This document shows, piece by piece, positions 62,899 to 64,000 of a DNA stretch of 64,000 nucleotides (position 1 is the stretch's first letter; each line of letters starts with the position of its first letter). The notes beneath the pieces were generated by a model. The model saw only the letters and a list, made by a program, of their open reading frames with translations. It had not been told where the DNA came from and ran no database searches. This DNA is from a virus: the IMG/VR virus record IMGVR_UViG_3300025102_000019, positions 6,342-70,341 of that record; one strand, 5' to 3'. A program made the position numbers and the translations under genes.

Positions 62899-62992
62899 TA
62901 GGCCACTGGGGATACAAGTATCCCAACACATGTATGTACACACGTGAACGTACCGTTCTAAAGAACGGAACGTTTAGACTAGGGCTTTCCCA

Positions 62993-62998
62993 TTTAAA
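62993..62998 (+). promoter_or_regulatory. archaeal TATA-like box (TTTAAA) for the + strand gene
   Basis: 21-26 nt upstream of ATG 63019, consistent with a leaderless archaeal transcript. Confidence 0.45.
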
Positions 62999-63018
62999 GG
63001 CTCAACACATAAGAGTCG

Positions 63019-63789
63019 ATGGCTAAGAAATCCGACATCCTAAGAAGCATAAAGACGACCGCAGAGTTCCTAGGGAACTCAGACAGACCTTCGGTCTGTA
63101 CTCTCAGAGTAGACTCATTGTCTACTCTGTCAAGGAACACCAAAGGTGTTCAATACACAAGGAAAAGCCTTAGGGCTTTTGCCAAAGCAATACTGACGGA
63201 ACGTCAGTCCTTCGGAGAAGGTATCTACATCCTTAAGGATGTAAACATCAAGTCTCTGAAAGATTCTCAACTCGGAGAGTTGCTTTCGGCTACTAACCCC
63301 AATGGGGTTAGTAAGTATTACACCACCATCCGAAGGATGACCTATCAGAACATCCTTGCTGATGCTATAGCATCAGCAGAAGAAGATGAGCCTGAGGCAA
63401 AGCCTCAGAAGAAGACAACCAAGAAGGCTAGGAAGTCAAAGACTTCCAAGAAAGCCAAGGCTTCTAAGAAGCCTAAACTCACACCTGTTGAAGAGGAACT
63501 CTTCGATGAAAACGGCAACCTTGACCCTCAGCCAAAGGCTGAAGCAAAGCCAAAGGCTACCAAGCCAAAGGCTTCCAAAGTGAAGAAGTCAGTTCCTAAG
63601 GGAACTGTTACCTTGACTGCCGTTATCAACGGCAAGAAGAGAGAAGCCACTCTGCCAAAGGCAGATTGGGAAGGAAGCAATCACTCCCAATGGGAGTTCA
63701 AGGCTGACTCCAGAGACATCCCTACCAAAGGTAGGAGCAAGAAAGAACTTGCAGTGCTAGTTGGAGTCCATGACTCCATCTTTGCTTGA
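63019..63789 (+). CDS. Lys/Ala/Pro-rich hypothetical protein (possible early, DNA-binding)
   Basis: 256-aa ORF at the start of the opposite-strand block, with histone-H1-like KKTTKKARKSKTSKKAKASKKPK and PKA repeats and a TATA-like box upstream. Confidence 0.65.
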   Translation: MAKKSDILRSIKTTAEFLGNSDRPSVCTLRVDSLSTLSRNTKGVQYTRKSLRAFAKAILTERQSFGEGIYILKDVNIKSLKDSQLGELLSATNPNGVSKYYTTIRRMTYQNILADAIASAEEDEPEAKPQKKTTKKARKSKTSKKAKASKKPKLTPVEEELFDENGNLDPQPKAEAKPKATKPKASKVKKSVPKGTVTLTAVINGKKREATLPKADWEGSNHSQWEFKADSRDIPTKGRSKKELAVLVGVHDSIFA

Positions 63790-64000
63790 ATCGAAGATTC
63801 CAACACACAAGTGTTCGGACATACGTAAGTGTTGGAGAGTGAGTCTAACGACTCGCTCTTCAGCATGTCAACCGACCCATGCTTCCACGTGTTAGAACAC
63901 ACATGGGTTACCCCAAAAAAAACGTCAAACTCCGAGAGGCATAGCCTCCCAGTGGTTTGGCTTATCAATGCCTAGCCTTCGGCTTAGGCTTCTTCTCCAA

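What the first reader, a model, noticed from the sequence alone, without database searches (positions are those of the whole stretch)
62909..63984. A coding gene tiled end to end with perfect DNA mini-hairpins
Seen in sequence: from 62.9 kb to the window end, short inverted repeats of unrelated sequence follow one another almost without gaps. Examples: GAGTTCC-TAG-GGAACTC 63064-80; ACAGACC-TTC-GGTCTGT 63083-99; AGAGTAGAC-TCATT-GTCTACTCT 63106-28; GAACACC-AAA-GGTGTTC 63135-51; AAAAGCC-TTAG-GGCTTTT 63163-80; ACTGACG-GAA-CGTCAGT 63192-208; TACATCCTTAAGGATGTA 63226-43; TACTAACCCC-AAT-GGGGTTAGTA 63291-313; the 22-bp palindrome TGCTGATGCTATAGCATCAGCA 63357-78; CTGAGGC-AAA-GCCTCAG 63392-408; GGAAGTC-AAA-GACTTCC 63431-47; CAGTTCC-TAAG-GGAACTG 63590-607; TGCCGTT-ATC-AACGGCA 63618-34; CCTACC-AAA-GGTAGG 63721-35; TGGAGTC-CAT-GACTCCA 63762-78. 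I count about 24 inside the 256-codon ORF and about 29 overall, and noticed nothing comparable in the preceding 62 kb. Stems are nearly all strict Watson-Crick, and many loops are 3-nt AAA/GAA/GGA closed by C-G. Established: C(GNA)G triloops form unusually stable, nuclease-resistant DNA hairpins, and N4 virion RNA polymerase uses short triloop hairpins as promoters. Inference: this is a second, structural code laid over the protein code at the probable genome start or first-injected region. It could protect ssDNA or RNA, provide cruciform binding sites for a viral protein, or result from local template-switch mutagenesis.
Basis: partly seen in the sequence, partly recalled or inferred. Interest (0 to 1): 0.92.

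Follow-up and report, generated by a model that had tools for sequence, protein, structure and literature searches.

The report
Virus gene tiled with DNA mini-hairpins
A real protein gene, sitting beside a repeat array at the head of the DNA-copying genes of an uncultured marine virus, is also a row of about two dozen perfect short hairpins that evolution keeps intact, and no described mechanism explains them.

Summary
Window 62909-63789 holds 24 perfect hairpins (stem >=6, loop <=6) covering 46% of its bases, against 2.7% elsewhere. Synonymous shuffles of the 256-codon ORF give 2.9+-1.7 hairpins; 22 are observed. The ORF is a real, foldable, orphan protein with 84 metagenomic homologues. Relatives keep the hairpins by paired changes, and stems evolve 2-4x slower than non-stem bases, even at third codon positions.

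The hairpins share one design: 7-bp stem, triloop, 5'-C..G-3' closing pair. They are strictly Watson-Crick, fold equally on both strands and show no G.T excess inside stems. This points to DNA rather than mRNA folding.

The "genome start" reading fails. The contig end is an assembly break, and in 83-106 kb relatives the locus lies mid-contig, at the strand switch at the head of a PolB replication module. It directly follows six GCGATTAAC iterons, whose sequence changes with the protein clade.

Best guess (0.4): an iteron-type origin or early-control module whose neighbouring gene doubles as a field of single-strand DNA hairpins.

I verified the same phenomenon in mycobacteriophage Patience gene 47. 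The scan found this before on other DNA (e1-6112513, e1-6138058, e1-5853528). My literature searches found no description.

The parts
62745..62812 (.). Nearly invariant non-coding block: a T8 run, a GC-rich core and an A6 run forming an A/T-armed inverted repeat, followed by a conserved tail. It lies just left of the iterons and is a candidate unwinding or control element.
   Evidence: Alignment of 13 relatives. This block is almost invariant, while the adjacent ORFs are only 63-95% identical at nucleotide level.
62813..62898 (+). Six direct GCGATTAAC iterons, with start-to-start spacing of 13, 19, 12, 12 and 21.
   Evidence: 6 matches in 64 kb, all here; 0.24 expected and 0 of 100 shuffles reach 6. 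The same 9-mer occurs 5-6 times upstream of the gene in WIN plus 19 loci. Distant clades carry a different iteron with a similar spacing pattern.
62909..62968 (.). Two non-coding perfect palindromes, P1 (62909-62924) and P2 (62953-62968), lying between the iterons and the promoter-like motif.
   Evidence: In 13 aligned relatives, P1 occurs in 5 different perfectly complementary versions and P2 in 4-5.
62983..63000 (+). Promoter-like 18-mer with a TATA-like core (TTTAAA here, ATATAAA in most relatives) that ends 20 nt before the ATG. The hairpin-free gap 62969-63063 spans it and the start codon.
   Evidence: the exact 18-mer occurs once in the window and again 36 nt before the ATG of the next operon in L005/L001. 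One search shows its conservation. Function is inferred, not shown.
63019..63789 (+). 256-codon ORF encoding an orphan two-domain protein: N domain 1-124, disordered Lys/Pro/Ala-rich linker, C domain 195-256.
   Evidence: 84 homologues at E <= 0.001. AF2 mean pLDDT 73.9, with both domains at 80-93. No Pfam or PHROG match. Only 6 clusters in 1.84 billion representatives.
63064..63778 (.). Array of 22 perfect mini-hairpins inside the ORF, with stems of 6-11 bp (mode 7), mostly triloops and mostly 5'-C..G-3' closing pairs, about one every 30 nt.
63790..64000 (+). Highly conserved structured 3' flank. It holds a 17-bp hairpin with 4 conserved G.U pairs on the + strand, a nested stem with compensatory changes, an A8 tract, and a terminator-like hairpin at 63970-63989 followed by a T-rich tail.
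   Evidence: Mean column identity is 91% in 13 relatives. The + strand consensus fold scores -65.9 kcal/mol with 9 of 58 pairs compensated. The - strand scores -61.8 kcal/mol with 7 of 59 compensated and the long hairpin lost.

Best explanation
The stretch is one conserved module at the strand-switch point of a roughly 85-110 kb marine tailed virus, probably archaeal and magrovirus-like. In order, the module contains:
1. an invariant A/T-armed block;
2. six iterons;
3. two non-coding palindromes;
4. a TATA-like promoter;
5. a gene for an orphan nucleic-acid-binding-looking protein, probably the iteron binder;
6. a structured 3' region.

The gene's DNA is under a second selection: to fold, on either strand, into a close-packed row of very stable DNA mini-hairpins whenever the duplex is opened.

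Most likely the module is the replication origin or early-control region. After the iterons are bound and the duplex is unwound (or strongly transcribed), both strands of the adjacent 0.9 kb collapse into hairpins. That would keep the strands apart, exclude single-strand-binding and recombination proteins, resist nucleases, and/or offer priming or loading sites, as the mini-hairpins in G4 oric and RSF1010 ssiA/ssiB do.

Shown: the hairpins, their design, their conservation and strand symmetry, the iterons, and the position at the head of the replication genes.

Inferred: that the protein binds the iterons, that this is an origin, and what the folded DNA does.
For: 1. The hairpins are selected structure. 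There are 22 observed against 2.9+-1.7 in synonymous shuffles. The same excess appears in all 8 relatives tested that have about 50% or more protein identity. Hairpin density is 21-31 per kb in 28 of 36 ORFs and 6-16 per kb in the 8 most distant.
2. They are conserved by paired change. Thirty unique CDS give 70 hairpin sites, many with several different stems at one site. In pairwise comparisons, pairs changed on both sides stay Watson-Crick in 11 of 12, 12 of 13 and 6 of 7 cases, where 1-2.5 are expected by chance. Stem positions diverge 2-4x less than non-stem positions, also at third codon positions, for example 5.5% against 29.5% and 13% against 40%.
3. They carry a thermodynamic design, not a binding motif. 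The closing pair is C..G in 148 of 214 distinct hairpins and 132 of 214 have triloops; background hairpins show 66 of 291 and 89 of 291.
4. They look like DNA and are strand-symmetric. ssDNA folding z is -14.0 on the + strand and -13.5 on the - strand. Among 51 distinct hairpins with one internal mismatch, G.T is 5 and A.C is 4. There are 160 distinct perfect hairpins with stems >=7 against 51 one-mismatch ones. Double changes are as often transversions (37) as double transitions (40). By contrast, the 3' flank of the same transcript has a 17-bp hairpin with 4 conserved G.U pairs.
5. Hairpin-type palindromes with paired changes also lie upstream of the promoter-like motif, directly after the last iteron.
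6. The iteron sequence changes with the protein clade while the array architecture stays. The locus heads the arm carrying an SNF2 helicase, a clamp loader, PolB and a PD-(D/E)XK nuclease.
7. In the 85-kb relative, hairpins per kb fall 22, 12, 10, 4, 3 away from the iterons on the + side only.
8. The published review PMC13037366 (passages read) says that stable DNA mini-hairpins occur at phage and plasmid replication-initiation sites (G4, RSF1010 ssiA) and bind SSB poorly.
9. An unrelated cultured phage shows the same thing. Patience gene 47 has about 20 hairpins in 717 bp, 13-14 of them with C-GAA-G loops, the classic DNA mini-hairpin.
Against: - No origin activity, unwinding or single-strandedness is shown, and no read-level data were available.
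- The region is not AT-rich (about 47% GC), unlike a classic unwinding element.
- The densest part of the array begins 45 nt into the ORF and stops at the stop codon, and the promoter and start region is hairpin-free. That pattern also fits an mRNA-level role.
- The unpaired position flanking the stems shows a modest sense-strand G.T excess: 60 observed against 39 expected. A.C is 69 against 62.5, and background hairpins show no such excess.
- In relatives L021 and L023 the enrichment does not extend beyond about 1.25 kb, so the 'gradient' is not general.
- The 8 most distant homologues keep the iterons but have far fewer hairpins (4-11 per ORF), so the array is not indispensable to the module.
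- Iteron binding by the protein is inferred from co-variation only. Fold searches gave nothing reliable; the best was Z 4.9 to the Rho N-terminal/SAP-like motif over 45 residues.
Confidence: 0.4

Rival explanations
1. mRNA-level code. The hairpins act in the transcript of this apparently monocistronic early gene. They would protect it from ribonucleases or from termination factors, pace translation of a dose-critical (initiator-like) protein, or favour co-translational binding of the protein in cis.
For: - The dense array lies between codon 16 and the stop codon, and the promoter and start region (62969-63063) is hairpin-free.
- The gene has its own promoter-like motif, a conserved structured 3' flank and a terminator-like hairpin.
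- There is a modest G.T excess at stem ends on the sense strand, 60 against 39 expected.
- In Patience the analogous gene's protein is seen only early and is thought to turn over fast (PMC4324244, passages read).
Against: - There is no G.U tolerance inside stems (5 G.T against 4 A.C), while the 3' flank of the same RNA uses conserved G.U pairs.
- The antisense RNA folds more stably than the sense RNA in 26 of 30 family members, so the sense strand is not specially optimised.
- Paired-change palindromes also lie upstream of the promoter-like motif.
- Triloops closed by C..G, and C-GAA-G loops in Patience, are the DNA mini-hairpin optimum.
- Other genes of the same arm do not carry such an array.
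Confidence: 0.2
2. Mutational by-product. Intrastrand template switching (quasi-palindrome correction) in a stretch that is often single-stranded keeps converting near-palindromes into perfect ones. On this reading the array is a self-maintaining footprint without a function of its own, as was proposed for hairworm mitochondria.
For: - The hairpins are all-or-none: 160 distinct perfect stems >=7 against 51 with one mismatch.
- Transversion-type paired changes are as common as transition-type.
- There are clustered multi-base differences between 95%-identical genomes, such as CAGTTCC-TAAG-GGAACTG against CAGTACC-CAAA-GGTACTG.
- Hairpin sites turn over (70 sites for about 20 per sequence), and distant homologues have few hairpins.
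- The Discussion of PMC6649704 argues this way.
Against: - Confinement to one gene and its flanks needs a local cause.
- The array persists at the same sites down to about 50% protein identity.
- Stems are strongly conserved at synonymous sites.
- The uniform design (7 bp, triloop, C..G closure) suggests filtering for foldability.
- The process would have to override strong protein constraint, since invariant residues are encoded inside stems.
- Even this reading requires that the DNA is regularly single-stranded here.
Confidence: 0.2
3. Double-stranded or cruciform protein-binding sites. On this reading the palindromes are docking sites, for instance for the Lys-rich, linker-histone-like product of the gene itself or for a junction-binding protein.
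For: - The strand symmetry fits.
- The Lys/Pro/Ala-rich linker and the weak SAP/Rho-N-like C domain fit.
- P1 and P2 are near-continuous 16-bp palindromes of the operator type.
Against: - The 22 stems share no sequence motif.
- Stems change freely as long as pairing is kept, which no sequence-specific dimer would tolerate.
- The C..G closure and triloop preference concerns the fold, not a duplex site.
- Stems of 7 bp extrude poorly as cruciforms (established knowledge, not tested here).
Confidence: 0.08
4. One reading: N4-type single-strand hairpin promoters, or a protective structure on the first-injected genome end.
For: - The hairpins have short stems and triloops, as N4 early promoters do (PMC13037366 figure legend).
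Against: - The locus is not at a genome end.
- There are 22 unrelated hairpins inside one ORF rather than a few conserved promoter hairpins upstream of genes.
- No N4-like virion RNA polymerase was found.
- Patience gene 47 also lies mid-genome, at 38.7 kb of 70.5 kb.
Confidence: 0.03

Closest known systems
[quoted passage not shown] 2019, PMC6649704; abstract and Discussion read)
   Same: Both have perfect inverted repeats embedded in functional protein-coding genes, with both arms coding. Both are all-or-none in perfection, show dynamic gain and loss, and leave it open whether selection or repeat conversion (template switching) maintains them.
   Different: There the repeats reach 284 bp and are scattered over many genes of an animal organelle, with a codon-phase preference. 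Here they are 6-11 bp mini-hairpins tiled about every 30 nt over one viral gene, with no phase preference (80/74/60). They also have a uniform C..G-closed triloop design and sit next to an iteron array.
Iteron origins with single-strand initiation hairpins: RSF1010 (IncQ) oriV (RepC iterons plus ssiA/ssiB) and the G4 complementary-strand origin (review PMC13037366, passages read; the plasmid's layout is partly recalled)
   Same: Both place direct-repeat iterons next to very stable DNA mini-hairpins that work on opposite strands once the duplex is open. Such hairpins exclude SSB and are recognised by primases.
   Different: Those origins have one or two dedicated non-coding hairpins of conserved sequence. 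Here about 24 unrelated hairpins overlap a whole translated gene. No origin or priming activity has been shown.
Origins inside or beside the initiator or replisome-organiser gene: lambda O/ori-lambda and SPP1 gene 38/oriL (recalled, not checked in a paper here)
   Same: In both, a replication-control DNA element is superimposed on or abuts the gene whose product binds it, at the head of the replication genes.
   Different: In those phages the overlapped element is a set of repeated protein-binding boxes plus an AT-rich stretch inside the gene. Here the repeats lie outside the gene, and what overlaps the gene is fold potential, not repeated boxes.
Mycobacteriophage Patience gene 47 (JN412589 38753-39469; Pope et al. 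2014, PMC4324244, passages read)
   Same: It shows the same phenomenon, verified here: about 20 perfect hairpins in 717 bp, 13-14 with C-GAA-G triloops. It is the first gene after a long intergenic region at the start of the non-structural arm. Its orphan protein has a Lys/Ala/Pro-rich middle, is really made, and is detected early only.
   Different: There is no detectable homology to the window's protein (BLASTP E 0.96). The host is bacterial, and GC is 62% against 47%. The paper attributes the odd GC to horizontal transfer and contains no occurrence of hairpin, stem-loop, palindrom- or inverted repeat.
Bacteriophage N4 early promoters for the virion RNA polymerase (PMC4496689 seen only as a search listing; PMC13037366 legend)
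   Same: Both involve short-stem, 3-nt-loop DNA hairpins that function after extrusion from duplex DNA.
   Different: N4 has three conserved promoter hairpins upstream of early genes at the genome end. Here there are many unrelated hairpins inside an ORF, mid-genome, with no N4-like polymerase detected.

Membership tests
Coding palindromes (Nematomorpha type) | Perfect inverted repeats inside functional protein-coding sequence, with both arms coding | tested here: met
   There are 22 perfect hairpins inside a conserved, foldable ORF.
Coding palindromes (Nematomorpha type) | Long repeats (tens to hundreds of bp) spread over many genes of the genome | tested here: not met
   Arms are 6-11 bp. 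The array is confined to one gene and its flanks, and the rest of the 70-kb contig is at background.
Coding palindromes (Nematomorpha type) | All-or-none perfection, with no excess of imperfect repeats | tested here: met
   There are 160 distinct perfect stems >=7 against 51 with one internal mismatch.
Iteron-type replication origin with ssi-like hairpins (RSF1010 oriV type) | Array of direct repeats (iterons) bound by a cognate initiator | tested here: inconclusive
   Six exact 9-mers are present. The array is family-wide and its sequence co-varies with the adjacent protein's clade. Binding was not tested.
Iteron-type replication origin with ssi-like hairpins (RSF1010 oriV type) | Stable single-strand hairpins on both strands next to the iterons | tested here: met
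   ssDNA fold z is -14.0 on the + strand and -13.5 on the - strand. The hairpins have the C..G-closed triloop design.
Iteron-type replication origin with ssi-like hairpins (RSF1010 oriV type) | Origin and priming activity | not testable with these tools
   Only assembled contigs of the public runs were available, so there are no read starts or coverage gradients.
N4-type hairpin promoters | A few conserved hairpins upstream of early genes at the injected genome end, read by a giant virion RNA polymerase | tested here: not met
   The hairpins are unrelated in sequence and inside an ORF. The locus is mid-contig in relatives. No polymerase domain was found in the 5567-aa ORF by Pfam or PHROGs, although that last point alone is inconclusive.
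Conserved structured RNA / cis-regulatory mRNA structure | Strand-specific pairing that tolerates G.U and shows covariation | tested here: inconclusive
   For the ORF hairpins, covariation is present but there is no G.U tolerance inside stems (5 against 4), the strands are symmetric, and there is only a modest G.T excess at stem ends. The 3' flank 63790-64000 does behave like an RNA element. There was no Rfam match.
Mobile palindromic repeats (REP/MITE-like) | Many copies of one repeat family | tested here: not met
   The stems are all different from one another and are in-frame parts of a conserved protein.
Magroviruses (viruses of marine group II archaea; Philosof et al. 2017, PMC5434244, passages read) | 65-100 kb tailed-virus genome with a structural module plus an archaeal-type replisome (PolB close to halovirus PolB, clamp loader, MCM, AEP primase and others) | tested here: inconclusive
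   Portal, TerL and prohead protease are present. In relatives, PolB finds its best cultured matches in haloarchaeal tailed viruses at 24% identity. A clamp-loader AAA protein, an SNF2 helicase and a PD-(D/E)XK nuclease are present. Pfam MCM and AEP primase gave no match in two incomplete relatives; the paper says such genes needed profile-profile searches.

The most novel reading that the evidence does not exclude
Hairpin-tiled genes may be a convergent, undescribed class of viral replication or early-control element. In this class a whole protein gene next to the initiator's iterons doubles as a 'hairpin field': both DNA strands collapse into SSB-excluding, nuclease-resistant mini-hairpins when the origin opens, and so organise unwinding and priming. 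The class would have arisen independently in marine archaeal-type viruses and in mycobacteriophages (Patience gene 47), where it can be tested genetically.
Probability: 0.25. Interest if true: 0.9.

Novelty: new variant of a known kind. Interest (0 to 1): 0.78.

Why it matters
This would be one of the clearest cases of two independent codes in one stretch of DNA. About half of the nucleotides of a conserved protein gene are also constrained to pair, strongly enough to slow synonymous evolution 2-4 fold and to shape the amino-acid sequence.

The array sits beside co-evolving iterons at the head of the replication genes of an abundant, uncultured marine virus group whose origin of replication is unknown. 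It recurs in an unrelated cultured mycobacteriophage. The finding therefore offers both a candidate origin architecture and a tractable system in which to learn what dense DNA (or RNA) hairpins do in vivo.

There are practical consequences too:
- Such genes distort codon-usage, GC-content and horizontal-transfer inferences. Patience gene 47's 62% GC was read as horizontal transfer.
- They may break assemblies.

Tried and rejected
Protein function:
- Pfam and PHROGs gave no match for the ORF.
- Foldseek against the PDB gave no match at E <= 0.001.
- VIA-align wide search gave a best Z of 4.9 over 45 residues (Rho N-terminal/SAP-like), which is below what the tool calls reliable.
- The ESM Atlas gave no usable hit.
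- A profile search of 1.84 billion representatives found only the family itself, 6 clusters.
- tblastn against 50,697 phage records found nothing for the ORF, and blastn of the stretch found nothing.

RNA families: Rfam gave only two sub-threshold chance hits, 19.2 and 16.8 bits.

Expression: I laid four RNA-library runs on 60500-64000. All are assembled contigs at depth 1-9. They cover the ORF, the iterons and the neighbouring minus-strand genes alike, and DNA carry-over cannot be excluded. This gives no evidence on transcription, strand, ends or level.

Host:
- The GTDB genome scan found no relative.
- Cluster names were uninformative.
- MCM and AEP primase Pfam models found nothing in G001 and G002.

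Strand tests that did not discriminate:
- The whole-ORF RNA minimum free energy is lower for the antisense in 26 of 30 members, probably because of base composition.
- For the 3' flank, the free energy is about equal on both strands.
- The column-wise count of G.T 206 against A.C 329 cells is contaminated by distant sequences that lack the hairpin.

Other:
- The sigma-70 and terminator scan gave only consensus matches.
- I considered amino-acid repeats (PKA and similar) as the cause and rejected it. Synonymous shuffles that keep the protein give 2.9 hairpins, not 22.
- I considered an assembly or amplification artefact and rejected it.

Literature:
- Searches found no description of hairpin-tiled viral genes.
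- The words hairpin, palindrom- and inverted repeat occur 0 times in PMC5434244, PMC11706807 and PMC4324244.
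Full report
OBSERVATION

The window is bases 6342-70341 of a single 70,341-bp virus contig, so the window end is the contig end.

A scan for perfect inverted repeats (stem >=6, loop 0-6) finds 135 in the 64-kb window. The last-kilobase bin holds 22, while all other bins hold 0-7. From 62909 to the stop codon at 63789 there are 24: 22 in the ORF 63019-63789 and 2 upstream. They cover 45.9% of those bases, against 2.7% elsewhere. The next-densest 870-bp stretch has 8, and it is AT-rich low complexity.

Three hundred synonymous-codon shuffles of the ORF, which keep the protein and the codon usage, give 2.9+-1.7 hairpins (maximum 8) against 22 observed. 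For stems >=7 they give 1.1+-1.0 against 16. As single-stranded DNA the stretch folds at z = -14.0 on the + strand and -13.5 on the - strand.

The stretch is present in 20 public runs of 16 studies. Homologous hairpin-rich genes occur in 33 metagenome loci and 2 IMG/VR contigs. It is therefore not an assembly or amplification artefact.

THE GENE IS REAL

The 256-aa product has 84 homologues at E <= 0.001 (99-33% identity, marine metagenomes including Tara). It aligns with 32 invariant columns.

It folds with AlphaFold2 into two confident domains, residues 1-124 and 195-256, joined by a disordered Lys/Pro/Ala-rich linker (mean pLDDT 73.9).

It is an orphan:
- No Pfam or PHROG family matches.
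- There is no Foldseek match.
- There is no Atlas hit.
- Only 6 clusters appear in a profile search of 1.84 billion representatives.
- The C domain gives a weak resemblance to the helix-extended-helix nucleic-acid-binding motif of the Rho N-terminus and SAP domains (Z 4.9, 45 residues, rmsd 1.9). That is below the tool's own reliability line and is only a lead.

WHERE IT LIES

The 'genome start' idea does not hold.
- A metagenome contig 99.8% identical to the last 4,982 bases of the contig runs on for another 3.8 kb (L005).
- In relatives of 83, 85, 63 and 106 kb the gene lies mid-contig.
- All genes of the window are on the - strand (portal, large terminase, prohead protease, a 5567-aa ORF), except this ORF.
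- In relatives the + strand continues with an SNF2 helicase, a clamp-loader AAA protein, a family-B DNA polymerase and a PD-(D/E)XK nuclease.

The ORF is therefore the first gene of the replication arm, at the strand switch.

The polymerase's best cultured matches are haloarchaeal tailed viruses (24% identity). A TATA-like box sits 20 nt before the ATG. However, Pfam MCM and primase models find nothing in two incomplete relatives, and no host genome holds the gene. An archaeal host is likely but not settled.

ANATOMY OF THE MODULE

From left to right:
1. A block at about 62745-62812 (T8, GC-rich core, A6 and a conserved tail) is almost invariant in 13 relatives whose ORFs are only 63-95% identical.
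2. Six exact GCGATTAAC iterons lie at 62813-62898. These are the only six in the window, where 0.24 are expected.
3. Two non-coding perfect palindromes lie at 62909-62924 and 62953-62968.
4. An 18-nt promoter-like motif lies at 62983-63000. Its exact copy also precedes the next operon at the same 36-nt distance from the ATG.
5. A hairpin-free gap at 62969-63063 spans the promoter and the start codon.
6. The hairpin-tiled ORF follows.
7. A 211-nt 3' flank follows. It is 91% identical across the 13 relatives, more conserved than the coding sequence.
   - Its + strand consensus fold contains a 17-bp hairpin with four conserved G.U pairs, and 9 of 58 pairs are compensated.
   - On the - strand that hairpin is lost.
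   - It ends in a terminator-like hairpin with a T-rich tail.

The iteron array is family-wide, and its sequence changes with the protein clade:
- GCGATTAAC occurs in WIN plus 19 loci of the main clade.
- Three other repeat units occur in distant clades, with a similar 42-44/23/12 spacing.

This is the pattern expected of a DNA-binding protein and its sites. It is the basis for my inference that the ORF encodes the iteron binder.

THE HAIRPINS ARE UNDER SELECTION

Hairpin density is 21-31 per kb in 28 of the 36 ORFs examined and 6-16 per kb in the 8 most distant. The shuffle excess holds in 8 of 8 relatives tested that have about 50% or more protein identity. It is weaker but present in 4 distant ones, at 4-7 against about 1.

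In a codon alignment of 30 unique CDS, about 20 hairpins per sequence fall into 70 sites, and many sites carry several different stems. One site, for example, has five versions. Of 167 well-supported column pairs, 84 show two or more Watson-Crick types.

In pairwise comparisons with the window's allele, pairs changed on both sides remain complementary in 11 of 12, 12 of 13, 6 of 7 and 7 of 8 cases, where 1-2.5 are expected by chance.

Stem positions diverge 2-4 times less than non-stem positions, also at third codon positions: 5.5% against 29.5% for L007 and 13% against 40% for L018.

A 23-residue insertion present in some relatives brings its own hairpins.

The two non-coding palindromes upstream evolve the same way, with 5 and 4-5 complementary versions in 13 sequences.

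DESIGN AND STRAND

Over 214 distinct hairpins of the family:
- The effective stem is most often 7 bp (97 hairpins).
- The loop is 3 nt in 132 and 4 nt in 65.
- The closing pair is 5'-C..G-3' in 148 and G..C in 19.

Background hairpins of the same genomes show C..G in 66 of 291 and triloops in 89 of 291. This is a signature of fold stability, not of a duplex binding site. Codon phase is not preferred (80/74/60).

The stems are strictly Watson-Crick.
- Among 51 distinct hairpins with one internal mismatch, G.T accounts for 5 and A.C for 4.
- There are 160 distinct perfect stems of >=7 bp.
- Paired changes are as often transversions (37) as double transitions (40).

Both strands therefore fold equally, and wobble pairing is not tolerated. 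In the 3' flank of the same transcript, by contrast, wobble pairs are conserved. This is my main reason to place the ORF hairpins at the DNA level, or at least on both strands.

Evidence pointing the other way:
- The dense array is bounded by codon 16 and the stop codon.
- The position just outside the stems shows a modest sense-strand G.T excess: 60 against 39 expected, where background hairpins show none.
- Whole-ORF RNA folding favours the antisense in 26 of 30 members, probably because of composition.

In the 85-kb relative, hairpins per kb fall 22, 12, 10, 4, 3 rightwards from the iterons and are at background leftwards. In two other relatives the excess ends after about 1.25 kb.

A SECOND, CULTURED EXAMPLE

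- Gene 47 (38753-39469 of JN412589) has about 20 perfect hairpins in 717 bp, where its neighbours have 0-5 per 500 bp.
- Of those hairpins, 13-14 have C-GAA-G triloops.
- The protein shows no detectable similarity to the window's (E 0.96), but it too has a Lys/Ala/Pro-rich middle.
- The Patience paper (PMC4324244, passages read) reports gene 47 as a 62%-GC orphan ascribed to horizontal transfer. It reports gp47 as the only one of 81 detected proteins seen early but not late. It has no occurrence of hairpin, stem-loop, palindrom- or inverted repeat.

A hairpin-tiled gene is thus translated, early, in a tractable system. C-GAA-G is the classic extraordinarily stable DNA mini-hairpin. A 2026 review (PMC13037366, passages read) places such mini-hairpins at phage and plasmid replication-initiation sites (G4, RSF1010 ssiA), notes their poor SSB binding, and shows the N4 promoters as another case.

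INTERPRETATION

Best reading (0.4). This is an iteron-type origin or early-control module. The neighbouring gene, probably the iteron binder, doubles as a field of DNA mini-hairpins that fold on either strand whenever the duplex is opened. That would stabilise opening, exclude SSB and recombinases, resist nucleases, or provide priming or loading sites. The hairpins, the design, the conservation, the strand symmetry, the iterons and the position are shown. Origin function, iteron binding and the role of the folded DNA are inferred.

Rivals:
- An mRNA-level code for stability or paced translation (0.2).
- A self-maintaining template-switch footprint without function, as discussed for hairworm mitochondria (PMC6649704, Discussion read) (0.2).
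- Duplex or cruciform protein sites (0.08).

Even the by-product reading needs this DNA to be regularly single-stranded.

NOVELTY

The closest published phenomenon is the coding palindromes of Nematomorpha mitochondria. They differ in scale, distribution and design.

My searches found no description of hairpin-tiled viral genes. These were, plus term look-ups in two magrovirus papers and the Patience paper. Supplements were closed.

The scan itself has reported this before:
- On the same gene family in other genomes (e1-6112513, e1-6138058).
- On other families (e1-5853528, e1-5908228, e1-5734869).

- the clade-wise co-variation of the iterons;
- the C..G-triloop design measured against a genome background;
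- the slower synonymous evolution of stems;
- the internal contrast with the wobble-rich 3' element;
- the promoter-like motif that leaves two paired-change palindromes outside the transcript;
- the direct check of Patience gene 47.

Noticed in passing
window 62813-62898; L028 3757-3832; L031 3693-3803; L036 1879-1975; L037 3787-3872: The iteron array upstream of the gene is conserved in architecture, but its repeat unit differs between protein clades. GCGATTAAC marks the main clade, and three other units occur in distant clades with a 42-44/23/12 spacing. This suggests a co-evolving protein/site pair.
   Followed up: partly
window 62745-62812: A non-coding block (T8, GC-rich core, A6 and tail) is nearly invariant across relatives whose neighbouring genes have diverged to 63% identity. 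It is a candidate unwinding or regulatory element.
   Followed up: partly
window 63790-64000: The 3' flank is more conserved (91% mean column identity) than the ORF. Its + strand-specific fold includes a 17-bp hairpin with four conserved G.U pairs, compensatory changes, an invariant A7-8 tract and a terminator-like end. It may be an RNA element in its own right, and it has no Rfam match.
   Followed up: partly
window 62983-63000 and L005 5294-5311 / L001 6280-6297: The same 18-nt motif with a TATA-like core lies 36 nt before the ATG of two successive transcription units of the replication arm. It is a candidate early promoter, and it would give near-leaderless mRNAs if the host is archaeal.
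   Followed up: partly
L005 4981-5136 (just beyond the window end): The 560-bp gap before the next operon holds A/T-rich palindromes of a different style (ACGT/TATA-type, 6-8 bp arms). Our contig, and many short metagenome contigs, break near here.
   Followed up: no
L002 5203-5255 (alignment columns 276-310 of the CDS alignment): A 23-residue insertion found in several relatives of the protein is itself encoded by two or three perfect hairpins. Newly inserted sequence therefore obeys the same rule.
   Followed up: no
L030 and L037, both flanks of the ORF; L036 2035-2063: In distant clades an 11-nt palindromic motif of the AACGTCACGTT type is repeated on both sides of the gene, so the gene is bracketed by a second set of sites.
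   Followed up: no
L045 10754-11470 (Patience gene 47) and 10350-10753: Patience gene 47 is hairpin-tiled with mostly C-GAA-G loops. Its 400-bp upstream region has two copies of a 16-nt direct repeat. The gene's 62% GC, published as a sign of horizontal transfer, may instead reflect the GC-rich stems.
   Followed up: partly
window 60878-62707 (minus strand): Several small minus-strand ORFs next to the module share an N-terminal FDxAWxLLK-like tag. I did not study it here.
   Followed up: no
window 9532-9921: There is a small cluster of AT-rich palindromes (ATATAT-type) inside the 5567-aa ORF. It is the second-densest hairpin spot of the window, but it is low-complexity and unlike the array.
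   Followed up: no
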